Assembly: GCA_020720085.1 (NCBI GenBank)
Contig: DYPE01000004.1
Coordinates: forward strand, 11,922 to 35,087
Origin: Dichelobacter nodosus
GTDB taxonomy: Bacteria > Pseudomonadota > Gammaproteobacteria > Beggiatoales > Beggiatoaceae
Reading direction: 5' to 3'
Length of the DNA stretch: 23,166 bases
A program made the position numbers and the translations under genes. Below are positions 1 to 23,166 of the stretch, one piece after another. Every line of letters starts with the position of its first letter. Position 1 is the stretch's first letter. The notes under the pieces are model-generated. The model was not told where the DNA came from. It saw nothing but the letters and a program-made list of their open reading frames with translations, and ran no database searches.

Positions 1-36
1 ACGCCCGTGTTCCGGGCCACGCCCGTGTTCCGGGCG
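1..36 (+). repeat. Two copies of the 18-bp unit acgcccgtgttccgggc(c/g), the same family as 22595-22659
   Basis: Read directly from the sequence. Confidence 0.85.
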
Positions 37-164
37 CAGAAGCGCCCAATCTCCTGACCAAGGGTTCCAAGGCGGTGATTCTGGCATATAATGCCGAAGA
101 CAATACTTACTGGGTCACCGCGCTGGAAGATATTTTGCGCGATGACAGGCCGGATACACTTTAA
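3..164 (+). CDS. 3'-terminal fragment of a protein whose tail carries ARVPG(H/A) hexapeptide repeats; the 5' end lies outside the window
   Basis: Frame 3 is open from the window edge to TAA at 162-164. It translates as ARVPGHARVPGAEAPNLLTKGSKAVILAYNAEDNTYWVTALEDILRDDRPDTL, a natural-looking C-terminus. The 18-bp DNA unit acgcccgtgttccgggc occurs twice and encodes the repeats. Not in the ORF track because it has no start in the window. Confidence 0.4.
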   Translation, partial: ARVPGHARVPGAEAPNLLTKGSKAVILAYNAEDNTYWVTALEDILRDDRPDTL

Positions 165-4577: not shown

Positions 4578-4710
4578 GCAATTGCTGGAAAAGAAAGCCG
4601 CCGCTTGCGGGTATTTTACTTGACAGAAATTGCCTTAAGTAGCACCACTCGCTTTACAGCACCGCCCTTACAAACTCATTTTCATTTTCGTTCGGGAGCC
4701 ACGCCACGTT

Positions 4711-5100: not shown

Positions 5101-6675
5101 ATGGAATTGCATATTGCGGGCAGTGTGAATGGTAACAACGCAGGGTATGGTATTGAAGCAATCCAGCGAATATTAGATGCCCCCCGCCAAGATATGGCCC
5201 ACGGCTCATCTTGGACAGGGCGGCCTTCTACGCGGCTTCACCGCGACAGCGGGCACATGCTGAAAATCAAGGAAGAACTGCAAATGAATCTGGTTTCCTC
5301 GCAACGCTATGTTGAACAAGCGTTGGCGCGGGAACGCACCCTGCAAGTGCATCCACCTGAAAAAACTTGGTTTTACGCAATTTCTCCCGCAATGCCGGAT
5401 CAGCCGCTGATTGGCAACATCTGCCCACTGCTTACTCCGCTTAACCTGTATTTTGACCGCCATGGTGCAGCAAATCCAAGCGCTTGCCTGAATTATATCA
5501 TTCAGCTATGGGAACTGTATTTTCACACCATAACCACCCATAACGCCCGCCTGGACGAAGGCTTGTCCAACTTTGGCTTAGATGCGCATGACCGCTTATA
5601 CTATTTAGATGACGATCTCTACGCCTGGGATCGGTTCGTCACTTGCGGCCAAATGCTGGGCGTACAACTGCGCTCGCAGCCATGGATAGGTAAAACGCAA
5701 GGGATTGAATTGGGCAAAGCCTTGCGCCAGGCGATCCTGCGTTATTTTGACGACGCCCAATATCTCATCGTGCTCACCGAGCAATTGCGCGGCGTATTTC
5801 TCACGGATGCCCGCCGCCAAGTGTTGGAGGCGCTCATTAGCGGGCTGTATCAGCCCATCGGTCTAATCACCACCGCCACCGCCACGGCTCCCCCCGTTGC
5901 TGTGCCGCAACCCGCACCGCCACCACCACTCCCGAGCCGCTATCTGGCTTTGCTGGCCGACGTACACGCCAATCTGCCCGCACTGGAGGCTGTGCTAAAC
6001 TTTTTGCAGCAAAAAAACATTAGCCATGGTTTTGTACTGGGCGACGTGGTGGGCTATGGCCCGCACCCAGCAGCGTGCATTGAGCGCCTACAGCAAACCT
6101 GCTTAACCGTGCTTAAAGGCAATCATGACCAAGGCTTGGGCAGCAATAAAATCAACGATGGATATTCCATCACCGCCAAATGGGCGCTGGCTTGGAGCCA
6201 GCACCACACCAGTGCCGCACACCGCCAATGGCTATTGAACTTGCCCCCCGTGCTGTATGGCGAAGATTGGATTGCCCTGCACGGCGCGCCCATGGATCCG
6301 ACGTTTTTTAATGCCTACGTCTATGTCATGACCTATGAACAAAATTTGGATAATCTGGCACAGCGGGGCATCCGCCTGTGTTACCACGGCCACACCCACA
6401 TTCCTGGCATCTATGCCCGCACGCCAGATGGCAAGGATCTGCACGTATGGCAAGCGGAAATTGATCTAAATGAGTATAGCCACGCGCTCATCTGTCCCGG
6501 GTCTGTGGGCCAACCGCGCCACGGCTTTAGCGGCGCACATTTCGCGGTACTTGACCGCGAACAAAATAAGCTATTTTTTTATCAGATTCAATATGATATA
6601 CAGCAAATAATCAACGAAATGACCGCTGCCGGTTTTCCTGATGCACTCATCCACCGCTTGCGCACTGGCGCTTAG
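5101..6675 (+). CDS. Two-domain protein: unknown N-terminal domain (~270 aa), Pro-rich linker, and C-terminal calcineurin-like (PPP-type) metallophosphoesterase domain
   Basis: The C-terminal domain carries PPP phosphoesterase signature motifs: LLADVHAN (GDxHG-like), GDVVGYGP (GDxVDRG-like) and KGNHD (GNHE-like), plus downstream His residues. The linker is TATATAPPVAVPQPAPPPPLPS. An alternative start is ATG 5284 (MNLVSS) with the better RBS aaggaag. It lies in the same orientation immediately after the Roadblock gene. Confidence 0.7.
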   Translation: MELHIAGSVNGNNAGYGIEAIQRILDAPRQDMAHGSSWTGRPSTRLHRDSGHMLKIKEELQMNLVSSQRYVEQALARERTLQVHPPEKTWFYAISPAMPDQPLIGNICPLLTPLNLYFDRHGAANPSACLNYIIQLWELYFHTITTHNARLDEGLSNFGLDAHDRLYYLDDDLYAWDRFVTCGQMLGVQLRSQPWIGKTQGIELGKALRQAILRYFDDAQYLIVLTEQLRGVFLTDARRQVLEALISGLYQPIGLITTATATAPPVAVPQPAPPPPLPSRYLALLADVHANLPALEAVLNFLQQKNISHGFVLGDVVGYGPHPAACIERLQQTCLTVLKGNHDQGLGSNKINDGYSITAKWALAWSQHHTSAAHRQWLLNLPPVLYGEDWIALHGAPMDPTFFNAYVYVMTYEQNLDNLAQRGIRLCYHGHTHIPGIYARTPDGKDLHVWQAEIDLNEYSHALICPGSVGQPRHGFSGAHFAVLDREQNKLFFYQIQYDIQQIINEMTAAGFPDALIHRLRTGA

Positions 6676-7335: not shown

Positions 7336-7396
7336 AGGCCTGTTGCCCATCCAGTGCCGCTTGTTATATCGCTACACTGTAACTACACTTTACTTC

Positions 7397-7690
7397 ATGA
7401 ACCACATCAAATTTGAGTGGAATCCAGCCAAGAATCTCGCCAACCAGAAAAAACACGGGGTTGCTTTTGAAGAAGCCAAAACTGTGTTTGCTGACGAATT
7501 TGGTCGCTTAATTCCAGACCCGGAGCATTCTGCGGGAGAAGAACGTTTTATTCTCTTGGGCAGGAGTGCGAATAGCAGACTGTTAATCGTCTGCCATTGC
7601 GAGCGCGGCATCGGTACAATCCGCATTATTTCTGCGCGCAAAGCAGACAAATTTGAACGTAAACAATATGAGAGCTATATCTATGCGTGA
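7397..7690 (+). CDS. brnT: BrnT-family (DUF497) type II toxin, ribonuclease
   Basis: MNHIKFEWNPAKNLANQKKHGVAFEEAKTVFADEF...ERFILLGRS...LLIVCHCER...IRIISARKA matches the BrnT hallmark (FEWD..KA..N..KHGV.F.EA..VF.D). The stop overlaps the antitoxin start. The ORF-track start 7343 is upstream; ATG 7397 is preferred. Confidence 0.8.
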   Translation: MNHIKFEWNPAKNLANQKKHGVAFEEAKTVFADEFGRLIPDPEHSAGEERFILLGRSANSRLLIVCHCERGIGTIRIISARKADKFERKQYESYIYA

Positions 7691-9517: not shown

Positions 9518-10030
9518 ATGAAAACAACCATGCGTTTTTTCCAAGCCGGAATCGTGGGCATTGCGCTGGGCTGCGCACACATCAGCTATGCGGCGGACGC
9601 GCCGCGCCCGGATGACAGTTTCGCCTTGAAAGGCGTAGAAGTCGGCAAGGTCGCGTTTGACATCACGCCTGGCGACGCCAAAAAATTGGCGCTGTTCTTA
9701 AAAGTCATCGCGCAAACCCATGCGGATTTGCTTCGCCAAAACGTCAAACCCGACATGGTGTTGGTATTTCACGGCGCAGCAGTACAATTGATCACCAGCG
9801 AGTATCCGGCGGATTTGGCGTTGGACGATGAAGACGCACGCAAAGAAATTGCCTCAATTTTGGCGGATTTACATCATAAAGGGGTGCGAATTGAGGCGTG
9901 TTCAATTGCCACTGAGTTGTTTAAGGTCAATACCCAGGCTTTGTTGCCAGGCATTGTGTTGGTAGGTAATACCTTTGTGTCGCAAATTGGCTATCAGGCG
10001 AAAGGATATGCGATTATTCCGGTGAATTAG
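9518..10030 (+). CDS. Exported protein (Sec signal peptide), tentatively DsrE/DsrF-like fold
   Basis: Excellent RBS aaaaaggag. Signal peptide MKTTMRFFQAGIVGIALGCAHISYA-AD. The mature ~145-aa domain (MVLVFHGAAV...GVRIEACSIAT) is reminiscent of DsrE/DsrF-like sulfur-relay-fold proteins. The family assignment is a low-confidence guess. Confidence 0.55.
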   Translation: MKTTMRFFQAGIVGIALGCAHISYAADAPRPDDSFALKGVEVGKVAFDITPGDAKKLALFLKVIAQTHADLLRQNVKPDMVLVFHGAAVQLITSEYPADLALDDEDARKEIASILADLHHKGVRIEACSIATELFKVNTQALLPGIVLVGNTFVSQIGYQAKGYAIIPVN

Positions 10031-11394: not shown

Positions 11395-11471
11395 GGCTAT
11401 GTAGCTCAGCTGGTTAGAGCGCGGCACTCATAATGCTGAGGTCGGTGGTTCGAGTCCACCCATAGCCACCA
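11395..11471 (+). tRNA. tRNA-Met (anticodon CAT), elongator type
   Basis: 77-nt cloverleaf: acceptor stem GGCTATG/CATAGCC, D-arm GCTC...GAGC, anticodon loop CTCATAA and T-arm GGTGG TTCGAGT CCACC, ending in an encoded CCA. G1-C72 paired and close similarity to enterobacterial metT argue for the elongator type rather than initiator. A lysidine tRNA-Ile2 cannot be fully excluded. Confidence 0.88.
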
Positions 11472-11545: not shown

Positions 11546-11614
11546 GTCTTTTGCACGCGCGGTTTATGCTATTTGCATTCTTACCCCCTCATCGCAATTC
11601 ACGGAACCGCACAC

Positions 11615-12745
11615 ATGGGACAACAAACTCCGCTGTATTCGCAGCACTTGGCCGCGCACGCTAAAATCGTCGATTTTGGCGGCTGGGACATGCCATTGCA
11701 TTATGGCTCGCAAGTGCAAGAACATCACCAAGTGCGCACCCACGCGGGCCTGTTTGACGTTTCGCACATGACTGTGGTGGACGCGCATGGCCCGGGCGCG
11801 CGCGATTTCCTGCGCTACGCGCTGGCCAACGACGTGGCGCGCCTGACGGTACCCGGTAAGGCACTGTACAGTTGTATGCTCAATGCCCAGGGCGGCGTGG
11901 TTGATGATTTGATTGTCTATTTTTGGACGCCCGAACACTATCGCTTGGTGGTGAATGCGGCTACGCGCGCCAAGGACTTGGCGTGGTTAAACCACTTGAC
12001 CGCCGGTTTCGCTGTCACGCTGGCGGAACGCGACGATTTGGCCATGCTGGCAGTGCAAGGACCGCACGCACGCGAACGCGCTGTTCCGCTGTTGCCAACG
12101 GCGTTGCACGCGCCTGCGTTGGTATTGCCGCCGTTTCACGCTTGCCAAGACGGCGACTGGATGGTGGCGCGCACCGGCTACACGGGCGAGGATGGCTTTG
12201 AAATTTTGTTGCCCGCGTCGCAAGCTGCGCAAACTTGGGAAGCATTACTGGCTGCTGGCATTGCGCCCGCTGGCCTGGGCGCGCGCGATACCCTGCGCTT
12301 GGAAGCAGGCATGGCGCTGTATGGTCATGAAATGGACGAAACCACCCGGCCTGACGAGGCCGGGCTGGCCTGGACGGTGGCCTGGACGCCACAACGCGAT
12401 TTTGTAGGCCGCGTTGCGCTGGCTGCACAGCCTGCTGCGTACCAACAAGTGGGCATACTGCTTGCCGGCCAGGGCGTGCTGCGCCAAGGCCAAACCTTGT
12501 GGCACAATGGCGCGCTCGCTGGCCAAATCACCAGCGGCGGCTTTGCGCCCACGCTCAACGCCTCCATTGCCCTGGCACGTGTGGCTACGCAGCACACAGC
12601 GGTGTCTGCCGTTGCCGCCCATGGCTGGGAGGTGGAAATCCGGGGCAGTGCACAGCGCTGCCGTCGTTTGTCGGTACAACGGGTAAAACCGCCATTCGCC
12701 CGCCATGGTGGGTCATGCTATACCCAATTACCGGCGGCTGAATAA
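11615..12745 (+). CDS. gcvT: Glycine cleavage system T protein (aminomethyltransferase)
   Basis: MGQQTPLYSQHLAAHAKIVDFGGWDMPLHYGS...HQVRTHAGLFDVSHM...ARTGYTGEDGFEI is the classic GcvT signature. The ORF track starts at 11573; ATG 11615 matches the family N-terminus. Confidence 0.9.
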   Translation: MGQQTPLYSQHLAAHAKIVDFGGWDMPLHYGSQVQEHHQVRTHAGLFDVSHMTVVDAHGPGARDFLRYALANDVARLTVPGKALYSCMLNAQGGVVDDLIVYFWTPEHYRLVVNAATRAKDLAWLNHLTAGFAVTLAERDDLAMLAVQGPHARERAVPLLPTALHAPALVLPPFHACQDGDWMVARTGYTGEDGFEILLPASQAAQTWEALLAAGIAPAGLGARDTLRLEAGMALYGHEMDETTRPDEAGLAWTVAWTPQRDFVGRVALAAQPAAYQQVGILLAGQGVLRQGQTLWHNGALAGQITSGGFAPTLNASIALARVATQHTAVSAVAAHGWEVEIRGSAQRCRRLSVQRVKPPFARHGGSCYTQLPAAE

Positions 12746-12810
12746 CTTCTGTTTTATCAAGATCCATTATTTTTTAACAACTTTTCGTCCAATCACTGGA
12801 GAGAACAATC

Positions 12811-13200
12811 ATGAGTGACATCTTAGAGGAATTGAAATACACCGAAGAACATGAGTGGGTTCGTGACGAAGGCAATGGCATGGCCACAATAGGCATCACG
12901 GATCATGCGCAGAGCCAATTGGGCGACGTGGTGTATGTGGAATTGCCCGAAGTGGGCGCACGTTATGCAGCGGGTGATGCCTGTGCCTTAGTGGAATCGG
13001 TTAAGGCGGCTTCCGATGTGTACAATCCGCTGGACGGTGAGGTCACGGCGGTCAACGACAGCCTGAATGACAATCCGCAAAGCGTGAACCACGATCCCTA
13101 TGGCGACGGTTGGTTGTACCGTCTGAAAGTCAGCGACACTGACCTTAGCCACTTGATGTCTGCCGAGGAATACGCTGCACTCGTGGCGGAAGAAGAATAA
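12811..13200 (+). CDS. gcvH: Glycine cleavage system H protein (lipoyl carrier)
   Basis: YTEEHEWVR...GITDHAQSQLGDVVYVELPEVG...ESVKAASDVYNPLDGEV contains the lipoyl-Lys motif ESVKA. RBS ggagag. Confidence 0.9.
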   Translation: MSDILEELKYTEEHEWVRDEGNGMATIGITDHAQSQLGDVVYVELPEVGARYAAGDACALVESVKAASDVYNPLDGEVTAVNDSLNDNPQSVNHDPYGDGWLYRLKVSDTDLSHLMSAEEYAALVAEEE

Positions 13201-13203
13201 GCC

Positions 13204-14622
13204 ATGCCCTACATCCCACACACGCCCGCTGAAATCCAGGAAATGCTCGCAACGTTGGGAATGGCGTCCACTGAGGCGTTATTCGCTGAAATTCCGCTGG
13301 CGTTGCGCAGTCCGCCGTTGAATGGCTTACCGCCTGGCATGAATGAGGCAGAAATCAGCCGCCTCATGCACAGCCGTGCGCGCCAAGACAGCGGCGGCAT
13401 ATGCTTTATCGGCGCTGGTGCTTACGAACACCATATTCCGGCAGCGGTGTGGGAATTGGCCAGCCGTGGCGAATTTTACTCCGCCTATACGCCCTATCAG
13501 GCTGAAGCCAGCCAAGGCACGTTACAGGTGATGTACGAATTCCAATCCATGATGGCCACGCTGACGGGCATGGACGTATCTAATGCCTCACTGTACGACG
13601 GGGCCTCCGCACTGGCAGAAGCGATTTTGATGGCGCTGCGGCTGGCGCGCAATGCGCCGCGCCGCGTGCTGGTGCCGCGCACCTTGCCGCCGCGTTACCG
13701 CGACGTGGCGCGCACGCTGGTGAAAAACCAAGGCATTGAATTGGTGGAGGTGGCGTTTGATCCGCACAGCGGCCAAACCTTGCCATCCCATTTCGATCAA
13801 GCGTTGGCGCAAGCGGGCGGCGCGGCAGCGCTGGTCATCCCGCAACCGAATTTTTTTGGCGTGATCGAGGAGGTGGACGCTTGCGTAGCGTGGGCCGCCG
13901 CGCAACAGCCCGCGCTCATGACCATTGCAGTGGCCAATCCGTTGGCCTTGGCCATTCTCGCGCCGCCAGGCGAATGGGGCGGCCAGGGCGTGGACATCGC
14001 GTGCGGCGAAGCGCAGCCGCTGGGCATTCCGCTGTCCTCTGGCGGCCCTTACCTGGGCTACTTATGCTGTAAAAACGAGCACATCCGCCAACTGCCCGGG
14101 CGCATTGCCGGACGCACCACCGACGTGGAAGGCAATCCTGGCTTCACGCTCACCTTGCAAGCGCGCGAGCAGCATATCCGCCGCGCCAAGGCTACGTCGA
14201 ATATTTGCACCAACCAAGGGCTGATGATGATTGCCTCAACCATTTATATGGCGTTGCAAGGTGCAGAAGGCTTGGCGCAAACCGCATGGGCGTGTCACCA
14301 TAACACGCTGGCGTTGCGGCAAAAATTGACTGCCATTCCAGGCGTTGCAACGGTATTTGACGCGCCCGTGTTCCATGAGGCGGTGTTGCGTTTACCAGTG
14401 GACGCACGCGAAGCGCTGCGTATTTTGGCCGCACACAATATCCTCGGTGGCTATGCCTTACAAGACGATTATCCTGAGTTGGGTAATGCTGTGCTGGTGT
14501 GCGCCACGGAACAACGCACCGACGAAGAGATGGAACAATACGCCGCGCATCTGCGCCGCGTGTTGCACCAAAACAGCGCCAGCTCGTGCAAGATGCCGCC
14601 CGCATCCATCTTCTCAACTTAG
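13204..14622 (+). CDS. gcvPA: Glycine dehydrogenase (decarboxylating) subunit 1, the N-terminal half of a split P-protein
   Basis: The N-terminus [31 protein letters not shown] and a ~470-aa length match GcvPA. The start is 4 nt after the gcvH stop. No gcvPB follows. Confidence 0.85.
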
Positions 14623-16040
14623 CGCGGAATTTTCGCTGCGGCGGGCTTTTTGTTGGCCGTCGCAGCGGCGGTGTTCCCGCCAACGGCGGATTCGCGCGGG
14701 AACACTTGCTGTAGCGTGTCGTAAAATTCCCGCACGCGCATCACAAAATGCACGGCCTCGAACCCGCGCGAATAGCCGTGGCGGGTTTGGCTGTGCCAAC
14801 CGGGTTGGCTCAGCTTGCGCAAATACGCTTGCACATCCACCCAGTGGTTAGGATCCGCGCCGTAACGCGCCGTCAATGTGCGCGCGTCCTCCACATGACC
14901 TTGACCTTGATTGTATGCGGCCAAGGCCAGCCAAGTTCGATCCGGTTCAGGAATTTCCAGCGGCACGTCCGTGAGTATCATGTGAAAATAGCGGCTGCCG
15001 CCATCAATGCTTTGCGCAGAATCCGCGCGATCTTGTACACCCATGCGTTTTGCCGTTTCCTCTGTGAGTTGCATCACGCCGCGCACACCCGTGGGCGATA
15101 CCGCGTGCGCGTCCCAGCGCGATTCCTGGTAAGCGATTGCTGCAAGCAAGCGCCAATCCAGCCCCAGCTCAGTTGCGGCTTTAACGAACAGTGGGCGGAG
15201 CTTAGGCAGGCGTTGTTCTATATGTTCATGAAATGTTTTGGTATGTACATAATCAAAATCTTCCATATGGCCATAATAACGATCCAGCAAACGCGCCAGC
15301 TCGCCGCTTGCGCGCAATTGGTTGAAGAAACGCAAGGCGGCTAAGTATAGGCTGTCATCGTCGCTTAACCGTGGAAACATCCAGGCCAAGGGCAGGTCGT
15401 CAGTGAGATCGAAGGCGGCGCGTAAATTAGGCCAACGGCGTTGGTAATACGCCAGTTCGTTGGAATATACCACCGTATAATCAATCGTTTGCTCATCCAC
15501 TTGCTGTAACAATTCGCGACTGGCGGACAACTGACTTTCACCCCAGACCAGGCCAGGGTTCTGTGCGCGCAATTGTTGCAATGGCAACAAATAATCTGGG
15601 TTGGCTTCCACGAACAGGCAGGTGCCGGTATGGACTAAATCTTCCGGCCCTTGGGGCTGGCGGCTGCCGTTGCGGTATACCAATTCCGCGCGCACCGTTT
15701 GGTAGCTGGGGCCAAAACGCACGTAGTTACGGCGCTCTGGGGTAACCGCCAAACCAGCAGCGGCCAAATGCGCACGCTTGCTGGCGGTCAAATGCAGCAC
15801 TTGATCGGAGTTTTCTGCCAGGATTAGTTCCATATGCACGCCCAACTCGCGCGCGAAACGCGCGGCAAGTTCGTATTCTAGGCCATCTTCCTGGCCATTT
15901 TCAGCGCGTTGGTAGGTGGTTGGACTCGCGCGCGTGACTACCACCAGCTTGCCTTCGGCTTGGATACGCTCCAGCAAAGTCATTTTAGAATGATAAAACG
16001 TATGCACAAACCCAAGGAACATAATCAGCAAAATTTTCAT
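14619..16040 (-). CDS. mltF: Membrane-bound lytic murein transglycosylase F (periplasmic solute-binding-like domain plus SLT domain)
   Basis: Signal peptide [16 protein letters not shown]. An SBP_bac_3-like N-terminal domain. The C-terminal SLT motifs are [30 protein letters not shown]. Convergent with gcvPA, whose 3' end it overlaps by 4 nt. Confidence 0.85.
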
Positions 16041-16130
16041 TTTTTCGTAGGGTCGGTAGCCTGGAATTGTCCCCGTGCGAGGGGGCCATAAACGTAGGGC
16101 GGATTAAGGCGCGTGGGTCTGCGCCGTATC

Positions 16131-16190
16131 CGCCAACGACGGCGCTCCCGTCAACGGCGGCGTTCCCGCCAACGACGGCGTCCCGTCAAT
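16131..16190. repeat. Degenerate 18-bp tandem repeat (~3.3 units; ccgYcaacgRcggcgYtc) in the mltF upstream / GT2 downstream spacer
   Basis: ccgccaacgacggcgctc ccgtcaacggcggcgttc ccgccaacgacggcgtc ccgtcaatc, visible directly in the sequence. Confidence 0.6.
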
Positions 16191-16197: not shown

Positions 16198-16959
16198 TCA
16201 CTTGTCTTCTTGGGCGTCGGCCAACAGCATGAGTTTTAGATAACGATAATACGTGGATTCTGCATTGGACACTGCGAGCATGAAGCCTTGCTTGCCATCC
16301 AACAGCCCGAGGCGCAGGAAGTAGGTGCGGATAAACGTCCACAACCCAGCCAGCACCGCCTTGGTCAAGCCGCCGGTTTGGCCTTGGGCCAGGCGTTGCG
16401 CTGCGCCCGCGCTGGAGTAGTGGTTCATTTTTGCCACCACTTCTTCTAGGGTTAAAAAGGAATAATGAATCAACGGTTCCGCCAGGGTTCCCACGTTATG
16501 CCCGTCCGCTACTATCAAGCGTTCATGCACCACATCGTCGCTAAAGCGTGCGGCATCGCGCTGGAACAGCCGGGTGACATAATCGGGCCACCAGCCGCCA
16601 TGGCGCATAAATTTTCCACAATACCACGATTTTCTAGGCATTTTCCAAGCGGCGTAACGTGCGCTGACCATGGCCGCAGCGATGGCTTGGCGTAAAGCGT
16701 CGCTTACTTGTTCATCGGCATCCACTGCCAGCACCCAATCGCCAGTGGCAAAGTCCAGCGCGCGGTTTTTTTGCCGACCAAAGCCGGGCCAGTCCGGCAT
16801 AATGTATACCTTGGCGGTAAATTCCTGGCAAATCGCCACCGTGTCGTCTGTGCTGCCGGAATCTACCACAATAATTTCATCGGCCCATGCCACCGATTGC
16901 AAGCACGCGCGAATGCAGTGGCTTTCGTCGCGGGTGATGACAATGACGGACAGGGACAT
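16198..16959 (-). CDS. Family 2 glycosyltransferase (KdtX/WaaE-like)
   Basis: [39 protein letters not shown]...DWVLAVDADE carries the GT2 DxD/DAD signatures. Its ATG shares one nucleotide with the kinase stop (TAATG). Confidence 0.8.
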   Translation of the reverse strand: MSLSVIVITRDESHCIRACLQSVAWADEIIVVDSGSTDDTVAICQEFTAKVYIMPDWPGFGRQKNRALDFATGDWVLAVDADEQVSDALRQAIAAAMVSARYAAWKMPRKSWYCGKFMRHGGWWPDYVTRLFQRDAARFSDDVVHERLIVADGHNVGTLAEPLIHYSFLTLEEVVAKMNHYSSAGAAQRLAQGQTGGLTKAVLAGLWTFIRTYFLRLGLLDGKQGFMLAVSNAESTYYRYLKLMLLADAQEDK

Positions 16960-19196
16960 TATTCGCGCGCTGCCAAAAATTGTTTAAACGCAGCCAATGT
17001 CGTTGGAATGCCATCCATATCAAATAGCGCGGTTTGCTCCTTTAGCTTTGCCGCCCACGCTTCGAGCGGCGCATAGCCAATGCGGTTGGCGGATTGCATG
17101 GCCAATGTGGCAAAATTTTCCAATTCATTGATACTGGAAGTATCGTCTAGGGCGCGCCATGCGGGTTCTAACACCGTATTGATTTCCTCGCGTGCACGGT
17201 GATCTGGCAATGGGATTACTGTTTCTGCTGCTGGCGGCGGCGCGCTGGCTGGCTGGGGAGGCGGGCTGACGGGCGACTCGCAGGGCAAAAAACGCCGCAT
17301 GAACTCGATTAAATCTGGTTTTTTAACCGGTTTGGGCAAATAGGCATCGCATAATTCCAATACTCGCGGAATTTCTTGCTGATCCAAAGCAGTGACTGCG
17401 ATGATGGGGATGTCCGCTGTATTGCTGTCGCTTTTCAAAATGTGGGTGGCTTCAAGACCGCCCATCAGAGGCATCTTCATGTCCATCAGTACCAGCGCGG
17501 GATGGTATTTGCGCGCCAACGTCACCGCTTCCTGGCCGTTGGTGGCTTCCAAAATGGACAATGGCTGGGAAGCCAAGAAGCCGCGCAACAGTTTACGGTT
17601 CAACGGCTCATCATCCGCCACCAGAATGGTGGCTGGAACGAATACCGTGTCTAAGCGCGGTTTGGCAGCGGTCAAGCGCGCTTGCACGCGCGTGGACGGC
17701 AACAAGGCCGGTAGGCGGAGAGTAAATGTACTCCCTTTATGTTCTTCGCTTTCCAAGGAAATCGAGCCGCGCATCAGTTCCACCAGCCGCCGGGTAATGG
17801 CCAAGCCTAGACCGGAACCGCCATAAGTGGCGTGATCCTGGTCACTACGTTGCTCAAACGCGCCAAAGATACGCTCAAATTCGCTGGCAGGAATGCCGAT
17901 GCCCGTGTCGCGCACGCGCACTTCTAATACGCCAGGTTCTTCTGCATACGGTGCTGAAGCCGATGCGGGCAAGTAGCGCGCCAACAGTTCGATATGGCCG
18001 TGTTCGGTGAATTTGACCGCATTGCCCACAACATTGAGGAGAATTTGGCGCAAACGGACACCATCCAACAGCAACGACGGCGGCACGTTATCGTCTATGC
18101 TGATGTGCAATTGTAGGCCCTTGGCGCGCACGCGAAAGTCAAAAATGTGCCGCAGCTCTTCACATAAACGCGAAAATTGTGTTTCTGTGGTCTGAATTTT
18201 GAGTTTGCCTGCTTCAACTTTAGATAAGTCGAGCAAGTCATTCATTAACCGCAGTAACGCCTCGCCGCTGTTAATAATTGCGGACAGGTAATCACGCTGG
18301 TGGGGATGGGTAATTTGCGTGCGCAGAATTTCCGCAAAACCTAAAATGGCGTTCATTGGCGTGCGGATTTCGTGGCTGATAATTGCCAAAAATCGGCTTT
18401 TAATCTGGCTAGCCTCTTCGGATTCTGCCTTGGCCGCTTCCAGACGCAAATCGCGTTGTTGAATCAAGGCCAGCATTTCATTAAAGCGGGTAATCAACCG
18501 GCTGAGTTCTTCGCAGCCTTGCTCATTGGCGCGCACGTTGTAATCCTGTTCGCTAGATACGCGCCCCATGGTTTCCAGTAAGTGGTACATGGGCTGGGTG
18601 ATTTTTTTCTGCAAGGCGAAGCCCATGGCCAGAGCCGCTGCAAGGGAAGCCACAGCGGCCATCAGGGCTAATCCCCAGTAAAGATATAAGCGCTGGTAAT
18701 GGTTGCTCATGTCCATGCGCAAAAAAAGAGTACCTACGGTTTTAACATCCTGCTTAATAGAAAGCGCTAATTCATATACGCCGTGGTGGAAGCGGCTTTC
18801 ACCCTGGCGTATTTCCCAGTTTTCTATCCCCAATGCGGCCTGCTGTTCCCCGGCAATTGAGCAATAGGTGGCAAAAGGCAGGTTATCTTGGCCATAAATT
18901 TCCGCACGCAATACATCCCGCGCGTACTTCAGCGCTTTTAGAATTTCATTGCCACCGCTGGGGTCTTTGAACATCACCGCTGCGGCTGCGGGGTGGCCGA
19001 TGATCGAAACAATGGTTTTGCTTCGTTCTATTACGGCTTGCCGCGTCAGTGCATACTCGTAGTAGCTGACGAAGCTTAAAATAAACAATACAGCTAACCC
19101 AGTGGTCGCCAGGGTAATGCGCATCAATTGATATTTGATGCTATTCCAAAATTGGGTTGGCGGCTGCGGCCTTTGATCCACGGTGGAATTTGGCAT
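16959..19196 (-). CDS. Hybrid sensor histidine kinase / response regulator (TM - periplasmic sensor - TM/HAMP - HisKA - HATPase_c - REC - C-terminal Hpt-like domain)
   Basis: H-box [20 protein letters not shown] boxes NAVKFT...DTGIGI...GGSGLGLAI. Receiver [14 protein letters not shown]...[16 protein letters not shown]...PIIAVTA. Two hydrophobic segments bracket a ~150-aa periplasmic region. The C-terminal ~110 aa resemble an Hpt domain, but with Gln where the phospho-His is expected ([11 protein letters not shown]), which is an inference. Confidence 0.85.
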
Positions 19197-19745
19197 TCAT
19201 GGCGTCCCTTCTGGCGGCTGGGCCAGATTTAATAATTTGTAGCTGAGTTGCAGTCCTGCGCTTTCCGCCTGGTCTTGGTGAATGGCAAAACGCACGTTTT
19301 TTCCTTTCCAGTGCAGCCGTACCATGCCACCTTGGGAAAGGAAACTAGGCGTTTCCGCTACGGTCAGCACTGGCGCGCCTGCGACTTGGTGCAATACCTC
19401 GGCCACCTGGGGTACGGATTGCGCAATAAAGAGTACATGACATTGCGTAAGGTTTGCCTTTGCCGTGGTGCTCAAATAGCGCGCTTGCAATGGCCGTCTG
19501 CGCACGGTTTCATCGCGCAAGGTTTTATCTAGCCAATCGCCAAATGGATTTTCCCCTAACACACAGAGCGTGATAGCTTCGTCCTTATTGGCAAAAGCGT
19601 GTTCTGGCCAGGTAACAAAATGCGTGAAATTAAATAGGTACACGGCCTTGATTTGGTATTCCTGGAGCAGATCGGTGTCTTGTGCACGGGCTGGGTCACC
19701 ACTGAACAGCCACAGCACAGCAATAAAAAAATAGCGCATTTTCAT
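19197..19745 (-). CDS. YfiR-family (DUF4154) periplasmic regulatory protein
   Basis: Signal peptide MKMRYFFIAVLWLFSGDPARA, followed by IKAVYLFNFTHFVTWP, the hallmark DUF4154/YfiR motif. The mature domain is ~160 aa. The kinase starts immediately after its stop (TGA then ATG), and its own ATG overlaps the TonB-receptor stop (TAATG). Confidence 0.7.
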   Translation of the reverse strand: MKMRYFFIAVLWLFSGDPARAQDTDLLQEYQIKAVYLFNFTHFVTWPEHAFANKDEAITLCVLGENPFGDWLDKTLRDETVRRRPLQARYLSTTAKANLTQCHVLFIAQSVPQVAEVLHQVAGAPVLTVAETPSFLSQGGMVRLHWKGKNVRFAIHQDQAESAGLQLSYKLLNLAQPPEGTP

Positions 19746-21913
19746 TAGGGTATCCGATAGCGAAGTTCTATTCGCACCGCACGTCCAGCCATGGGGTAGT
19801 CTCCTGGCACCGCGAGAAATCCTGCTCGATTAAGTCCAGGCGAGGGTTCAGCATAATCCGTATCCAGGATATTTTGCACCGTGAGTCCAGCCTCCCAGCG
19901 GTGGCCTAATTTTTTATGGACTATCAAATCAAATAGGGTGTATTCCGCCACTGGCGGGCGCGGATCAGTGAATTCGCGGCCTCGCTCGCCCACTTGGCGC
20001 GCTTGCACGCTCCATTGCCAATCCGGCGTAGGATTCCACACGCTGCGTGCTGCCATTTGGTAGTGCGGCACCATGGGCGCTAGCCTGCCCGATGGCTCGA
20101 GCCGCGCCCATTGTCCAGCAATGTGATACGCCAGCTTAAATTGCTTCGACTGCCGCCATTCGACTTCTATTTCGCCGCCCGGAATGTCCTGCGCGTCGCC
20201 ATTGATGACTTGTATTGAAGCCCCCGGGCCAGCGTCGGTCATGATGGCGTCGCGCCATTGCGAGTAAAAAATACTGGCAGCAAGGCGCACAGCGCTGTGG
20301 GGTCGCCACTCCAGGGCCGCTTCCCAAGTGCGCATGGTTTCTGGTTGCAAATCTGGGTTGCCTAAGAAAGAAGGGTTATTGCGGGCATACAACTCTTCCC
20401 AATTCGGTGGGCGAAACGCCTCGCCATACAAGAATTTAGCATTAACGCTGGCAGTGGGCGACCACACCAACGCCAGCCGTGGGTTCCATACCGCGCTACG
20501 TTCTTGATCGCTTTGCCATGGCGCAGAAAAGTACGTGTCATAGCGCAGACCCAAGGTCAACTCCACTGTGTCGCTCAGTTGCCAGACATCCTGCGCGTAA
20601 ACATAGCCCAGATGGCGGGTTCCCCTGGGCAAAAAGGCGTATTCGCTGTCGCTTAAATCCGTGACTGGCGCGCCAGCAGGTAGAAGACCGAACGGCGTCT
20701 GCCCAAAATTGCGCTGGTCGTGGACATACTGAATATTGGCATATTCATAGCCCATGCCCAGCCGCCAATGGTGGCGATCCAGCCCACGATAGCTCAGCGT
20801 GGTCTCAGCGCGGACAAGCCTCTGATCCGTACCGATATTGGCAATGACTCCATCGGGATACGCACCCTCGCCAGGCAAACGTGCGCCTTGGGGAGACAGC
20901 CGCTGATTTTCACTTTGATACCCCTGATATTGCGCGAATAGGGCAGCAGACCCGCGCCAATCGTCATCCAGCACCCAATCTTGCGCCTGCAAGTTGGCGT
21001 ACCAGCGATCCGTGTTTAAACGGCCTTCTGGGTCTAGGCTATAGCCATAGCCCAGCGCGGTGCGTACCTCACGACGGCCTTGATACGCCAAGCCAGCGCG
21101 CAGAAAATTGCGCCCTGGCTCGCCTCGGGTGGCATCCAAGCGTATATCCGCATCCTGATAGCCCTGTGGCAACGCGCTGGGCGCGCGCGAGGCGCGCGAG
21201 GCGGTGAGGTCGTCGTAAAAAGATTGTTGATCGCGCTCCACCAGGCCACCATCGCCCGCGCGAGCAGCATAATCCACCATGGTCATAAGGTTCCAACCGT
21301 TACCAAGCGGCTGGCCATGGTGCAGCCAAGCGCCATGCTGCTCGAAATTACCAGCGCGCACGCCTGCTTCGGTGGTGGGCGCATTGCCGTGCGCAGTTTT
21401 GGTGGTAATGCTGATAACGCCCGCCACCGCGTCCGCGCCATACAGCGTCGAACCTGGGCCACGGATGACCTCAATCCGTTCGATTTGTTCAATCGGCACC
21501 CCATTCCACGCCACGCCCTGGTTCCCGCCCACCAGCGACGCAATGGGCGCGCCATTGAGCAATATCAGGGTTTGCGCGTTGGCAGCCGAAAATACGCCGC
21601 GAATGACATAAATATCCTTGTACAACGTGTTGGTGGAAATATGAATGCCTGGCACCGAAGCCAGCGCGTCGCGCACATGGCCAGCGCCCATTTCCACCAA
21701 ATCCTGCCGAGTCAGTACCGTGGCCACGGCGGGCGCTTTATTCACGGGCGTGGGAATGCCGCTGGGCAGGGTCGCTTTTTCCACTGGCAATTCCACCAAC
21801 TCACCAAAGTCCAGGTCTTTTAATTTTTTCAAAACATTGTCTTCATCTGCCCAAACAGGCAAGAATGCGCTGGCCACCAGCACAACCAATGCAAATGGAA
21901 AAAAACGTGTCAT
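19745..21913 (-). CDS. TonB-dependent outer-membrane receptor
   Basis: Signal peptide MTRFFPFALVVLVASAFLPVWA. Plug-domain motifs (VIRGP.S.LYG..A..GVI.I.T). A long beta-barrel region with repeated aromatic-x-aromatic patterns. The ORF track extends to 22000; ATG 21913 gives the canonical signal peptide. The C-terminus (...RYRIP) lacks the usual terminal Phe/Trp. Confidence 0.85.
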   Translation of the reverse strand: MTRFFPFALVVLVASAFLPVWADEDNVLKKLKDLDFGELVELPVEKATLPSGIPTPVNKAPAVATVLTRQDLVEMGAGHVRDALASVPGIHISTNTLYKDIYVIRGVFSAANAQTLILLNGAPIASLVGGNQGVAWNGVPIEQIERIEVIRGPGSTLYGADAVAGVISITTKTAHGNAPTTEAGVRAGNFEQHGAWLHHGQPLGNGWNLMTMVDYAARAGDGGLVERDQQSFYDDLTASRASRAPSALPQGYQDADIRLDATRGEPGRNFLRAGLAYQGRREVRTALGYGYSLDPEGRLNTDRWYANLQAQDWVLDDDWRGSAALFAQYQGYQSENQRLSPQGARLPGEGAYPDGVIANIGTDQRLVRAETTLSYRGLDRHHWRLGMGYEYANIQYVHDQRNFGQTPFGLLPAGAPVTDLSDSEYAFLPRGTRHLGYVYAQDVWQLSDTVELTLGLRYDTYFSAPWQSDQERSAVWNPRLALVWSPTASVNAKFLYGEAFRPPNWEELYARNNPSFLGNPDLQPETMRTWEAALEWRPHSAVRLAASIFYSQWRDAIMTDAGPGASIQVINGDAQDIPGGEIEVEWRQSKQFKLAYHIAGQWARLEPSGRLAPMVPHYQMAARSVWNPTPDWQWSVQARQVGERGREFTDPRPPVAEYTLFDLIVHKKLGHRWEAGLTVQNILDTDYAEPSPGLNRAGFLAVPGDYPMAGRAVRIELRYRIP

Positions 21914-22129
21914 GAAATGAAACTCGTCAAAAGGATACGTTATACTTAACGCCAGCGTTATAAAGGGTTGTGCGCATGAAAAATCTGGCGCATTCAACAC
22001 ATCTGCCTTTAGGTATGCACATGCTGGTTTGCATTTTAGCAGGATTTAGCCTAGCGCGGGATTACTCCTATACGGTTACTAAGCACAAGCCAGTGCCCTC
22101 TTTAGCAATGAACCCAACCCACAGTCATC

Positions 22130-23166
22130 ATGCGTTGTTTGATTAAAACGATAATCCGCTCCGGCGGAGGCAGCAAAGTGTACCGCGAACAACGGGTCAG
22201 CGTGGACACGCTGGCGTTGGGGCGCGGCGCAGATCAAACGATGTTTTTGCCAGATGCTGGCATAGCCAGGAGCACTGGCGTAGCCAGGAGCACTGGCGTA
22301 GCCAGGAACGCTGGCGTAGCCCGCGTTCCGGGCACGATTGCACAAGCCAGCAACGGCGGTTATTTGTTTCAAGCGCCGCACGGAGTAGGTGCCCGCGTCA
22401 ATGGCCGCATGACGCGGGCCGCCTTGCTCAAGACCGGCGATATTATTGAGTTGGATCGCTTGCGCATAACGCTGTTGGCGTGCAAGCGTGCGGCGGGGGC
22501 GGATGAGGACGCATTAATCCTGGAAATAGAAGAAGTCACGCCGCCACGTGCGCCGGAATTCCCTTTGCCCGCCGCACCGGGCCATGCCCGTACCCGGAAC
22601 ACGGGCGTTGTTCCGGGCTACGCCCGCATTCCGGGCTACGCCCGCGTTCCGGGCTACGCATGGTTTACACAGCGACGTAGCGCCTGGCTTTTGTTTTTAT
22701 TTATTATTTTTGCATTTTTACTGGTTCCGTTATTCAGCGTGTATTGCCAAAATTGCTATCAGCCCTGGCAAGAACGCCTGCAAACCTGGTTGTACCCCGA
22801 GGGTGATGGCACGCTGGCACTGCCCTGGCTGCTGTCGGACAAATTTTGGAATTCTGGCGAACTGGCGTCTGCCCATCATTTTTTTCAACACGATTGTAGC
22901 GCTTGCCACCAGCAGCCATTCGCACCCGTGACCGACGAAGCGTGTACCAATTGCCACCGCACCACCCATCCGCATGTGGATCCGTATTATTTTGCCGTAG
23001 ACTTTCTCATCACCACCCGCTGCGCCGAATGCCATGCCGAACACAATGGTCGCGCTGCCTTGGTGAACCGCGACGATAGGCTATGTAGCCAATGCCACCG
23101 CGATTTGGCGCGCCATTCGATTTTAACCACAGTGGAGGATGCCGCTGATTTCGGTGAGGATCATCC
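22130..23166 (+). CDS. FHA domain - hexapeptide repeat linker - single transmembrane helix - multiheme cytochrome c domain (at least four CxxCH); 3' end outside the window
   Basis: Manual translation of frame 2, which is open to the window edge and therefore absent from the ORF track. MRCLIKTIIRSGGGSKVYREQRVSVDTLALGRGADQTMFLPDAGIA-[RSTGVA]x3-...GARVNGRMTRAALLKTGDIIELDRL is an FHA domain. It is followed by the repeats VPGYAR IPGYAR VPGYA, the transmembrane helix AWLLFLFIIFAFLLVPLF, and then CSACH, CTNCH, CAECH and CSQCH within ~90 aa. Confidence 0.6.
   Translation, partial: MRCLIKTIIRSGGGSKVYREQRVSVDTLALGRGADQTMFLPDAGIARSTGVARSTGVARNAGVARVPGTIAQASNGGYLFQAPHGVGARVNGRMTRAALLKTGDIIELDRLRITLLACKRAAGADEDALILEIEEVTPPRAPEFPLPAAPGHARTRNTGVVPGYARIPGYARVPGYAWFTQRRSAWLLFLFIIFAFLLVPLFSVYCQNCYQPWQERLQTWLYPEGDGTLALPWLLSDKFWNSGELASAHHFFQHDCSACHQQPFAPVTDEACTNCHRTTHPHVDPYYFAVDFLITTRCAECHAEHNGRAALVNRDDRLCSQCHRDLARHSILTTVEDAADFGEDH
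22262..22333 (+). repeat. 18-bp tandem repeat (3 near-perfect units plus 1 degenerate; gtagccaggagcactggc) lying in-frame inside the FHA domain
   Basis: Read directly from the sequence. It encodes the (A)RSTGV hexapeptide repeats. Confidence 0.85.
22595..22659 (+). repeat. 18-bp tandem repeat (ccgggctacgcccgcRtt, ~3.5 units) lying in-frame in the cytoplasmic linker of the FHA-cytochrome gene
   Basis: Read directly from the sequence. It encodes (V/I)PGYAR repeats. The unit is nearly identical to the acgcccgtgttccgggc repeats at window positions 1-36. Confidence 0.85.

What the first reader, a model, noticed from the sequence alone, without database searches (positions are those of the whole stretch)
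22262..22659. In-frame 18-bp VNTR-like arrays inside the FHA domain and its linker
Two separate perfect or near-perfect 18-bp tandem arrays (gtagccaggagcactggc x3-4; ccgggctacgcccgcRtt x3.5) encode hexapeptide repeats (RSTGVA; VPGYAR). One array lies within what should be the conserved loop region of the FHA fold (around the expected SR.HA position). Tandem repeats of a multiple-of-3 length in a signalling protein are prone to slipped-strand copy-number variation. They could tune binding or simply be tolerated expansions.
Basis: seen in the sequence. Interest (0 to 1): 0.55.

Follow-up and report, generated by a model that had tools for sequence, protein, structure and literature searches.

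The report
REP-like palindromic repeats inside genes
The two 18-bp repeat arrays in this FHA-cytochrome gene are copies, in opposite orientation, of one small hairpin-forming repeat family that is scattered through this bacterium's DNA and has slipped in-frame into loops of several unrelated proteins, a known kind of selfish or neutral DNA rather than a gene-specific tuning device.

Summary
TRF finds two in-frame 18-bp arrays, at 22257-22321 (3.6 copies) and 22611-22659 (2.7 copies). They lie in a gene for an N-terminal FHA domain, a TM helix and a multihaem cytochrome.

They are not two private VNTRs:
- Array 1 is the reverse complement of the array 2 family. One stem pair carries a compensatory change.
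- The same unit occurs at three more places in the 23-kb window. Two units sit in-frame in a DUF1449/OB-fold gene (1-35). A sub-type forms an intergenic array (16130-16189). One copy lies in the tail of an MltF-like gene (14664-14689).
- The unit is NAC, a 5-bp stem, a YRYTC loop and a 5-bp stem. There are three covarying stem types.

Against 122 homologues, array 1 is exactly +18 aa and overwrites the conserved ALxHA motif. Array 2 adds about 20 aa to the linker. Array 3 is a clean 12-aa insertion. AlphaFold2 keeps both folds and places the repeats in low-confidence loops.

This matches REP-type palindromic repeats inserted in-frame in ORFs (Di Nocera 2013; Rickettsia RPEs). I found no RAYT gene, could not get a genome-wide count, and could not test copy-number variation. 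Verdict: a new member of a known kind, of modest interest.

The parts
22130..23166 (+). Host gene, 5' 345 codons, running off the window end. It encodes an N-terminal FHA-like domain (aa 1-135), a linker, a TM helix (about aa 181-205) and the start of a multihaem (CxxCH) cytochrome domain.
   Evidence: Translation. Homologues of 573-588 aa carry Pfam FHA plus cytochrome c3/c7 domains and 10 CxxCH motifs. The AF2 model's Foldseek top hits are FHA domains.
22257..22318 (-). Array 1: three type-B units, inverted relative to array 2. On the minus strand each reads TAC GCCAG TGCTC/CGTTC CTGGC. On the + strand they encode (I/V)ARSTG, VARSTG and VARNAG.
   Evidence: TRF; minus-strand family matches; inverted-repeat pairs I1-I4 with array 2, 76-85% complementary; unit parsing. 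Together with the hybrid unit, this gives an 18-aa excess over 119 of 122 homologues.
22316..22333 (+). Hybrid fourth unit, GTA GCCCG CGTTC CGGGC. The stem and 5-nt loop are identical to an array 2 unit in forward orientation, while the 3-nt spacer is inverted. It encodes VARVPG and occupies the place of the conserved ALxHA motif.
   Evidence: Family D3, 15/15 identity with 22640-22654; unit parsing; alignments.
22577..22664 (+). Array 2 region in the FHA-to-TM linker. It comprises a degenerate unit (22577-22594), an inverted type-A unit (22592-22609, minus strand: AAC GCCCG TGTTC CGGGT), then 2.7 forward type-A units (22613-22659: TAC GCCCG CRTTC CGGGC). It encodes PGHARTRNTGVVPGYARIPGYARVPGYAW.
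   Evidence: (I5-I7). The linker is 47 residues against a mode of 27 in 122 homologues. pLDDT is below 50 at aa 162-174.
1..35 (+). Array 3: two type-A units (TAC/CAC GCCCG TGTTC CGGGC). The first base lies just before the window. They sit in-frame in the 3' part of a DUF1449/OB-fold (YqiJ-like) gene and encode YARVPGHARVPG.
   Evidence: TRF. The full gene is in L070/L071. It is a clean 12-aa gap in all 17 aligned homologues, directly after the invariant V169-R170. AF2 puts it in a low-pLDDT loop between two strands.
3..164 (+). 3' end (53 codons plus stop) of the DUF1449/OB-fold membrane protein gene that hosts array 3.
   Evidence: Frame read from the sequence. The full 224-aa product is P0026.
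16130..16189 (+). Intergenic array of 3.4 type-C units (AAC GRCGG CGYTC CCGYC). It has the same 3+5+5+5 architecture and the same loops, with stems altered by compensatory changes. It starts 9 nt after the stop of the GT2 gene and lies upstream of the MltF-like gene; both genes are on the minus strand.
   Evidence: TRF; sequence; hairpin scan and parsing; enrichment over shuffles; covariation count.
14664..14689 (+). Solitary type-C unit (AGC GGCGG TGTTC CCGCC AAC GGCGG) inside the C-terminal tail of the MltF-like gene (minus strand). It encodes ...SAVGGNTAA..., 16 codons before the stop.

Best explanation
Both arrays are clusters of one lineage-specific, dispersed, REP-like palindromic repeat.

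**The unit.** It is 18 nt: a 3-nt spacer (NAC), a 5-bp stem arm, a 5-nt loop (YRYTC) and the complementary arm. In head-to-tail arrays each arm can pair with either neighbour.

**Where it occurs.** Copies occur in both orientations, in intergenic DNA and inside at least three unrelated genes.

**Why it persists in coding sequence (inferred).**
- The unit is six codons long.
- The phase used is free of stop codons.
- The insertions lie in surface loops or linkers, where they encode flexible Gly/Pro/Ala/Arg-rich hexapeptides.

**In the FHA-cytochrome gene.** One cluster added 18 residues to the beta4-beta5 loop and overwrote the conserved ALxHA motif. The other lengthened the cytoplasmic linker by about 20 residues.

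**Shown:**
- family identity across loci
- orientation
- insertion status against homologues
- hairpin covariation
- predicted loop location

**Inferred:**
- Spread is at the DNA level, by REP/RAYT-type mobilisation or by hairpin-templated copying, followed by local slippage.
- The effect on the protein is neutral to mildly damaging, with the canonical FHA ligand loop remodelled or lost.
For: 1. **Same family, opposite orientation.** Array 1 matches the array 2 consensus on the minus strand. The arms are 46-50 nt and 78-85% complementary.
2. **Cross-locus identity.** A 16-nt stretch (ACGCCCGTGTTCCGGG) is shared exactly between array 3 and, inverted, 22593-22608. A 15-nt stretch is shared exactly between 22319 and 22640.
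3. **Clean insertions.**
   - Array 1: 119 of 122 homologues have 9 residues where this protein has 27.
   - Array 3: a 12-aa gap in all 17 aligned homologues.
4. **Hairpin covariation.** Across 11 distinct units, all 55 cells are paired. Two of the five stem pairs each show three Watson-Crick types, and 0/500 shuffles reach the observed covariation score.
5. **Sub-type C.** It forms an intergenic array and a gene-tail copy. Outside arrays 1-3 there are 4 matching hairpins against 0.4 expected, with 0/200 shuffles reaching 4.
6. **DNA-level origin.**
   - The arrays are 69-77% GC against 54% for the window.
   - Array 1 holds 3 AGG codons, while AGG makes up only 6 of 339 Arg codons in the window's genes.
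   - The two orientations give unrelated peptides.
7. **Predicted structure.** AF2 keeps the FHA sandwich (pLDDT about 90) and the OB-fold, with the repeats in low-pLDDT segments.
8. **Multi-copy hint.** The window and a Logan contig both begin inside array 3, as expected for multi-copy sequence.
9. **Precedent.** PMC3733652 describes short GTAG REPs with 5-bp stems in arrays, sub-families with complementary stem changes, and intragenic REP clusters. Those clusters encode 20-82 aa, sometimes occur twice per ORF, and are thought to lie in loops or linkers.
Against: - Only about 24 kb of this organism could be read, so genome-wide copy number is unknown.
- No RAYT/Y1 transposase gene lies in the window.
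- Exact two-unit patterns were not found in 185,579 species genomes or in JGI metagenome contigs. The 68 hits are unrelated high-GC CCCGGC repeats.
- 9.6 kb from the closest available relative holds no unit.
- The units used for the covariation count were partly chosen by a perfect-hairpin scan, which inflates the percentage paired.
- Compensatory stem changes can arise from templated mutation in quasi-palindromes, without selection.
- The GTAG-type tag overlaps the stem. At the array 3 boundaries it lies on the opposite side from canonical GTAG REPs.
- The unit is 18 nt, below the usual 20-40 nt.
Confidence: 0.7

Rival explanations
1. Gene-specific VNTR or contingency locus. The hexapeptide arrays arose by local duplication within the FHA gene, and slipped-strand changes in copy number tune FHA binding or linker length.
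For: The arrays are tandem, in-frame, of high identity (93-96%) and hairpin-prone (ssDNA z = -5.4 and -3.4), all of which favours slippage. One array lies in the ligand-binding loop region.
Against: - The same unit occurs in other genes and in intergenic DNA, and in inverted orientation within the same gene, where it gives a different peptide.
- Copy numbers are low (2-4).
- Array 1 uses rare AGG codons.
- No copy-number difference is seen where assemblies overlap, though these are from the same sample and do not cover arrays 1 and 2.
Confidence: 0.1
2. Functional nucleic-acid structure or switch. The two inverted arrays pair across about 290 nt to form a long mRNA stem that controls translation or stability. 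Alternatively, they act as recombination arms for a reversible inversion that turns the gene off.
For: - In the RNA MFE structure of 22240-22680, array 1 pairs with array 2 (z = -5.36, 0/100 shuffles).
- A simulated inversion restores the frame at both junctions but introduces one stop codon, giving a possible OFF state.
Against: - The pairing follows automatically from two inverted copies of any palindromic family.
- The enclosed 290 nt encodes the conserved half of the FHA domain, collinear with all homologues.
- No recombinase gene is adjacent, and no inverted variant is observed.
- Array 3 and the type-C copies have no partner arranged in this way.
Confidence: 0.07
3. Decaying pseudogene. 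The repeats mark a gene that has lost function.
For: - Pfam no longer detects FHA in the native sequence. After excising 18 aa it scores only 13.7 bits, below the 20.7 cut-off, while homologues score 30-40 bits.
- The near-invariant H-A of ALxHA is gone.
Against: - The ORF is open for all 345 codons seen.
- All four CxxCH motifs in the window, and G31, R32 and N91, are conserved.
- All insertions are multiples of 3.
- The AF2 fold is retained.
- The 3' 40% of the gene lies outside the window, so this rival cannot be fully excluded.
Confidence: 0.05
4. Assembly artefact, with mis-joined or collapsed repeats in a metagenome contig.
For: - Several assemblies break in or near repeats. The window and L072 start inside array 3, and the JGI contig stops at 21447.
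- No second assembly covering arrays 1 and 2 could be retrieved.
Against: - Array 3 and the type-C arrays are identical in JGI, NCBI-MAG and Logan assemblies.
- The arrays are shorter than a read.
- Every intragenic array keeps the frame and the flanking homology.
Confidence: 0.03

Closest known systems
GTAG-tagged REP elements (repetitive extragenic palindromes), especially short-stem clustered GTAG-1 repeats such as those of Thauera sp. MZ1T (Di Nocera et al. 2013, PMC3733652)
   Same: - Short GC-rich stem-loops with a 5-bp stem and a 5-nt loop.
- A GTAG/GTGG-like motif at each unit junction.
- Sub-families that differ by complementary stem changes.
- Clustered arrays.
- Copies in both orientations.
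- Location downstream of ORFs and also inside ORFs, sometimes twice per ORF, encoding about 20-30 aa in presumed loops or linkers.
   Different: - The unit is only 18 nt.
- Units are packed strictly head-to-tail so that stem arms are shared, whereas head-to-tail dimers are rare in most REP families.
- The last G of the tag is paired.
- The type-C tag is GTTG.
- No RAYT gene is seen.
- Genome-wide abundance is unknown.
- The encoded peptides (GVAR, PGYAR, ARVPG) are absent from the catalogue in that paper.
Rickettsia palindromic elements (RPEs; Ogata et al. 2000, as cited in PMC3733652)
   Same: Dispersed palindromic DNA inserted in-frame into many unrelated, apparently functional protein genes, and tolerated because it lands on the protein surface.
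   Different: From my own knowledge, RPEs are about 100-150 bp single insertions in Rickettsia. Here the unit is an 18-nt mini-hairpin amplified in tandem, in a free-living gammaproteobacterium-like organism from a sulfidic cave biofilm.
Intragenic VNTRs / contingency-locus hexapeptide repeats
   Same: In-frame 18-bp tandem units within a signalling-type protein, with hairpin-prone DNA that would favour slippage.
   Different: - The units are shared between unrelated genes and non-coding DNA.
- They occur in both orientations.
- Copy number is low.
- No polymorphism has been shown.
PARCELs (palindromic amphipathic repeat coding elements; PMC2996958)
   Same: Intragenic tandem repeats whose DNA is palindromic, so that both strands encode related peptides.
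   Different: Judging from the title and abstract only, PARCELs are a horizontally spread protein-coding repeat module for surface proteins. The units here are minimal hairpins that also occur in non-coding DNA.

Membership tests
REP / GTAG superfamily (Di Nocera 2013) | Short palindromic stem-loop with a 5-13 bp stem and a 2-20 nt loop | tested here: met
   A 5-bp perfect stem and a 5-nt loop in 11 distinct units.
REP / GTAG superfamily (Di Nocera 2013) | Unpaired terminal GTAG-type tag (GTAG, GYRG, GTGG and similar) at one end of the stem-loop | tested here: inconclusive
   GTAG (arrays 1 and 2), GTGG/GTAG (array 3) and GTTG (type C) occur at every junction on one strand. However, the final G is the first stem base. 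At the exact boundaries of array 3 the GTR triplet lies 3' of the stem-loop, not 5'.
REP / GTAG superfamily (Di Nocera 2013) | Sub-families with alternative complementary stem residues | tested here: met
   The stems are GCCCG/CGGGC, GCCAG/CTGGC and GRCGG/CCGYC. Two pairs each show three Watson-Crick types.
REP / GTAG superfamily (Di Nocera 2013) | Element size of 20-40 bp | tested here: not met
   The unit period is 18 nt in all arrays.
REP / GTAG superfamily (Di Nocera 2013) | Many dispersed copies in the genome | tested here: inconclusive
   There are five loci and about 16 units in 24 kb, and assemblies break inside array 3. The rest of the genome could not be read.
REP / GTAG superfamily (Di Nocera 2013) | Association with a RAYT (Y1 transposase) gene flanked by the repeats | not testable with these tools
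   None of the 18 window ORFs scanned with Pfam gave a Y1_Tnp hit.
Rickettsia palindromic elements (RPE) | In-frame insertion of a dispersed palindromic element into functional ORFs | tested here: met
   There are three genes with in-frame copies. Two of these were verified as insertions against homologues.
Rickettsia palindromic elements (RPE) | Element of about 100-150 bp, with sequence families specific to Rickettsia | tested here: not met
   The unit is 18 nt. The host is a sulfidic-cave organism whose nearest protein homologues are labelled Gammaproteobacteria.
VNTR / contingency locus | Tandem in-frame repeats of high identity | tested here: met
VNTR / contingency locus | Copy-number polymorphism between strains or within a population | not testable with these tools
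   No second assembly covers arrays 1 and 2. The overlapping assemblies are from one sample and identical.
FHA domain (Pfam PF00498), for the host protein | Score above the Pfam gathering threshold | tested here: not met
   The native sequence gives no hit at E<=10. After excising 18 aa it scores 13.7 bits against a cut-off of 20.7. Homologues P0001 and P0002 score 40.1 and 29.7 bits.
FHA domain (Pfam PF00498), for the host protein | FHA beta-sandwich fold and homology to bona fide FHA proteins | tested here: met
   The protein is 46-52% identical to proteins that pass Pfam FHA. The AF2 model's top Foldseek PDB hits are all FHA domains, with target-normalised TM of 0.6-0.7.
FHA domain (Pfam PF00498), for the host protein | Conserved loop residues G-R, S-x-x-H and N-G (established knowledge of FHA pThr binding) | tested here: not met
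   G31-R32 and N91 are present. The (S/A)-L-x-H-A segment, near-invariant in homologues, is replaced by repeat-encoded residues.

The most novel reading that the evidence does not exclude
The family may be a minimal REP that is adapted to, or filtered for, life inside genes. All four intragenic occurrences, in both orientations and in three genes, use the one codon phase in which the 3-nt spacer is a codon (Y/H forward, V reverse). In addition, the two inverted clusters in the FHA-cytochrome gene could act as arms of a reversible inversion or a long-range mRNA helix that gates expression of a cytoplasmic-sensor/periplasmic-decahaem protein. If a dedicated mobilisation mechanism placed 18-nt units phase-specifically into ORFs, that would be a new way for selfish DNA to remodel protein loops.
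Probability: 0.1. Interest if true: 0.6.

Novelty: new member of a known kind. Interest (0 to 1): 0.33.

Why it matters
- **Annotation.** This corrects a tempting misreading. In-frame tandem repeats in a signalling domain need not be a tuning device. Here they are one dispersed hairpin repeat caught in coding sequence.
- **A natural experiment.** The case shows how much an FHA domain tolerates: 18 extra residues and loss of the conserved ALxHA motif, with the predicted fold retained.
- **Assembly.** Repeats of this type break metagenome assemblies at these points.
- **Extending the catalogue.** If the genome-wide picture confirms hundreds of copies and a RAYT gene, this would extend the REP catalogue to an unusually small, head-to-tail arrayed unit in a cave sulfur-cycle bacterium.
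- **The host gene.** It belongs to a large family of FHA-TM-multihaem cytochrome proteins that is barely described and deserves attention in its own right.

Tried and rejected
- **Two-unit DNA patterns in genome contigs.** The exact pattern gave 0 hits. The relaxed pattern in genome contigs and metagenome contigs gave 68 loci. All are high-GC (0.60-0.80) CCCGGC-type repeats without the palindrome, and so unrelated.
- **Composite hexapeptide query.** I searched all five open frames of the unit against 5.8 billion proteins. The only hit was one irrelevant weak match, P0025, a 12-aa repeat.
- **A second assembly of the FHA gene.**
  - Exact-protein look-ups of neighbouring genes returned only contigs that stop before it.
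  - Two start-codon variants of the TonB receptor are not on record.
- **MITE or cassette bounded by the two inverted arrays.** Rejected, because the enclosed 290 nt encodes the conserved C-terminal half of the FHA domain, collinear with all homologues.
- **Inversion switch.** The simulation keeps the frame at both junctions but gives one stop codon. There is no supporting evidence, so I kept it only as a low-probability rival.
- **Rfam.** No family matches the arrays.
- **Intrinsic terminator role for the intergenic array.** The terminator scan found nothing there.
- **Closest relative.** Its contigs (L075, L076) hold no units.
Full report
**1. Observation**

The window has 54% G+C. An ORF starts at ATG 22130 and runs off the right end, giving 345 codons. 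TRF reports two period-18 arrays inside it:
- 22257-22321: 3.6 copies, 93% matches.
- 22611-22659: 2.7 copies, 96% matches.

A degenerate consensus of the unit finds 7 matches at <=3 mismatches in the window, against 0.21 expected. None of 100 shuffles reaches 7. The encoded peptides are IARSTG-VARSTG-VARNAG-VARVPG and PGYARI-PGYARV-PGYAW.
- Array 1 runs to 22333.
- Array 2 has 2.7 clean copies, preceded by a degenerate unit and an inverted unit.

**2. The two arrays are one family in opposite orientation**

The matches to the array 2 consensus within array 1 are on the minus strand. The repeat finder reports inverted pairs of 46-50 nt at 78-85% complementarity, about 290 nt apart.

Parsed in one register, every unit has the same four modules: a 3-nt spacer, a 5-nt arm, a 5-nt loop and the complementary 5-nt arm.
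- Array 2: TAC GCCCG CRTTC CGGGC.
- Array 1, read on the minus strand: TAC GCCAG TGCTC/CGTTC CTGGC. The stem pair C-G has become A-T by a change on both arms.
- The fourth unit of array 1 (22316-22333): GTA GCCCG CGTTC CGGGC. Its stem and loop are identical over 15 nt to 22640-22654 in forward orientation, and only the 3-nt spacer is flipped.
- An inverted type-A unit lies at 22592-22609, inside the array 2 region.

**3. The family is not private to this gene**

*Array 3 (window 1-35).* This is a third array of 2 perfect units, TAC/CAC GCCCG TGTTC CGGGC. It lies in the 3' part of a gene that runs off the left edge. The full gene was recovered from an NCBI MAG contig and a JGI contig (L070, L071). 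It encodes a 224-aa DUF1449/OB-fold membrane protein. In an alignment with 17 homologues, the 12 residues YARVPGHARVPG are a clean gap in every one, directly after an invariant Val-Arg. Sixteen nucleotides of this unit recur exactly, inverted, at 22593-22608.

*Type C.* A sub-type with the same 3+5+5+5 architecture and the same loops, but with stems GRCGG/CCGYC, occurs at two places:
- A 3.4-unit intergenic array at 16130-16189, which starts 9 nt after a glycosyltransferase stop codon.
- A single copy at 14664-14689, in the C-terminal tail of an MltF-like gene.

*Statistics.*
- Outside arrays 1-3, the window holds 4 perfect 5-bp hairpins with a YRYTC loop, against 0.4 +/- 0.66 in dinucleotide shuffles. 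None of 200 shuffles reaches 4.
- Across 11 distinct units, all 55 stem cells are paired. Two of the five pairs each show three Watson-Crick types. The covariation score is 0.487, against 0.117 in shuffles (0/500) and at most 0.23 for slid partners.
- One caveat applies. The type-C units entered the set partly through a perfect-hairpin scan, so the percentage paired is inflated. The A-to-B compensatory change is independent of that selection.

**4. Effect on the host proteins**

*Homologues.* The nearest homologues of the ORF are 573-588-aa proteins, 46-52% identical. They have Pfam FHA, a TM helix and ten CxxCH motifs. The family has 925 representatives at E<=1e-3 in a library clustered at 50% identity.

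*Length differences.* I aligned 122 of these proteins.
- 119 have exactly 9 residues where the window protein has 27 (aa 43-69). That is an excess of 18 aa, or three units.
- The linker (aa 136-182) has 47 residues against a mode of 27.

*Conserved motif.* The near-invariant (S/A)-L-x-H-A segment is replaced by repeat-encoded residues, while G31, R32 and N91 are kept.

*Pfam.* It finds no FHA in the native sequence. After 18 aa are excised it scores only 13.7 bits, below the 20.7 cut-off. Homologues score 30-40 bits.

*Predicted structure.*
- AlphaFold2 with the 17-sequence alignment keeps the beta-sandwich at pLDDT about 90. Array 1 (aa 50-63) and array 2 (aa 162-174) fall below 50.
- The best PDB matches are all FHA domains, including GarA, OdhI and Rv0020c, with target TM of 0.6-0.7.
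- In the DUF1449 protein, the insert lies in a low-confidence loop between two OB-fold strands.

*Not a pseudogene, as far as the window shows.* The ORF is open and the four CxxCH motifs within the window are conserved.

**5. Evidence for a DNA-level origin**
- The two orientations encode unrelated peptides (PGYARV versus NAGVAR/STGVAR).
- The arrays are 69-77% G+C in a 54% background.
- Array 1 contributes three AGG codons, whereas AGG makes up 6 of 339 Arg codons in 14 window genes.
- All four intragenic occurrences use the phase in which the 3-nt spacer is one codon. Five of the six frames of the unit are open.

As single strands, the arrays fold better than shuffles: z = -5.4 for array 1, -3.4 for array 2 and -2.6 for the intergenic array. 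In RNA, array 1 pairs with array 2 (z = -5.4). Two inverted copies of a palindromic family would be expected to pair in this way.

**6. Distribution and provenance**
- Contigs from JGI 3300000234 (TB_GS09_5), NCBI GCA_974327925.1 and Logan SRR1560848 are 100% identical to the window wherever they overlap, including array 3 and the type-C copies.
- SRR1560848 and sample GS09-5 (Grotta Sulfurea, Frasassi sulfidic cave biofilm) are both listed in PMC4288042. These assemblies are therefore not independent populations.
- None of them covers arrays 1 and 2.
- The window and the Logan contig both begin inside array 3, which is typical of multi-copy sequence.
- Two-unit patterns were not found in 185,579 species genomes or in JGI metagenome contigs. 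All 68 hits to a relaxed pattern are unrelated high-GC repeats.
- 9.6 kb from the closest available relative holds no unit.
- The window contains no RAYT gene and the arrays match no Rfam family.

**7. Comparison with what is known**

Di Nocera et al. 2013 (PMC3733652) describe several features that match the picture here:
- REPs with 5-13-bp stems and 2-20-nt loops.
- Sub-families with complementary stem changes.
- Clustered arrays of 5-bp-stem GTAG-1 repeats in Thauera.
- REPs inside ORFs, often as dimers or groups encoding 20-30 aa (up to 82), and sometimes twice in one ORF.
- The argument that such inserts are neutral because they lie in loops or linkers.

The differences are:
- The unit is 18 nt.
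- Units are packed strictly head-to-tail, with shared arms.
- The GTAG-like motif overlaps the stem. It is GTTG in type C, and at the array 3 boundaries it lies on the other side of the stem-loop.
- The encoded peptides are not in that paper's catalogue.

Membership in the GTAG superfamily is therefore unproven. The resemblance in behaviour is strong.

**8. Verdict**

The best-supported reading (0.7) is a lineage-specific REP-like palindromic repeat family. Its clusters have inserted in-frame into loops and linkers of unrelated genes, including twice into this FHA-cytochrome gene. Mobilisation by a RAYT, or by hairpin-templated copying followed by slippage, is inferred and not shown.

The idea of two separate gene-specific VNTRs that tune binding is not supported. 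This is a new member of a known kind, and interest is modest.

Noticed in passing
window 22130-23166 and homologues P0001-P0016, P0112-P0261: The host gene belongs to a large family (925 representatives at E<=1e-3) of proteins of about 575 aa. They have a cytoplasmic FHA domain, one TM helix and ten CxxCH haem motifs. A 2026 bioRxiv preprint on Ferrigenium (10.64898/2026.01.22.701106) states that FHA plus multihaem cytochrome had not been reported before. In this family the usual FHA Ser is often Ala.
   Followed up: partly
window 1-6; L072 start; L069/L073 end at window 21447; L070/L071 ends at window 2600/2551: Independent assemblies of the same sample break at recurring points. Two (the window itself and the Logan contig L072) start inside array 3. 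The JGI contig stops inside the TonB-receptor gene, 34 nt before a CGATT-TGTTC-AATCG hairpin (21481) and near a degenerate unit-like stretch (21506-21523). Two others end in an AT-rich spacer at about 2550-2600.
   Followed up: partly
window 1584-1802: A 120-nt period repeat (1.8 copies, 74% matches) lies inside a 741-aa ORF (177-2402) that has no Pfam hit. The N-terminus looks SPFH/flotillin-like by eye, and the gene follows the DUF1449/OB-fold gene, as in yqiJ-yqiK pairs (from memory).
   Followed up: no
window 4038-5085: Adjacent genes encode a small Ras-like GTPase (Pfam Ras/Roc/ATP_bind_1) and a Roadblock/LC7 protein. This is an MglA/MglB-like pair, and it is followed by a 524-aa calcineurin-like phosphoesterase.
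   Followed up: no
window 5101-6675: The JGI assembly carries a protein (P0024) in the same 90% cluster as the window's product (P0023) but not identical to it, although the rest of the JGI contig that was fetched is 100% identical to the window. This suggests local strain variation, or a 6-bp repeat difference (CCACCG x2.7 at 5870-5885).
   Followed up: no
window 16959-22000 (minus strand): An operon-like run of TonB-dependent receptor, YfiR/HmsC-like (DUF4154) protein and CHASE8 hybrid histidine kinase is divergently oriented from the FHA-cytochrome gene. This could be a regulatory neighbourhood.
   Followed up: no
window 7343-7690, 11395-11468, 9518-10030, 11573-14622: The window also contains a BrnT toxin gene, one tRNA gene, a DsrE-family gene and the glycine-cleavage genes gcvT-gcvH-gcvP. 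These fit a sulfur-oxidising gammaproteobacterium from the Frasassi biofilm.
   Followed up: no
PMC3733652 Additional file 3: That catalogue already lists a single GTAG-23 REP inside an 'FHA domain containing protein' of Roseiflexus castenholzii (Rcas_0223, aa 427-434). This is a coincidental precedent for REPs in FHA proteins.
   Followed up: no
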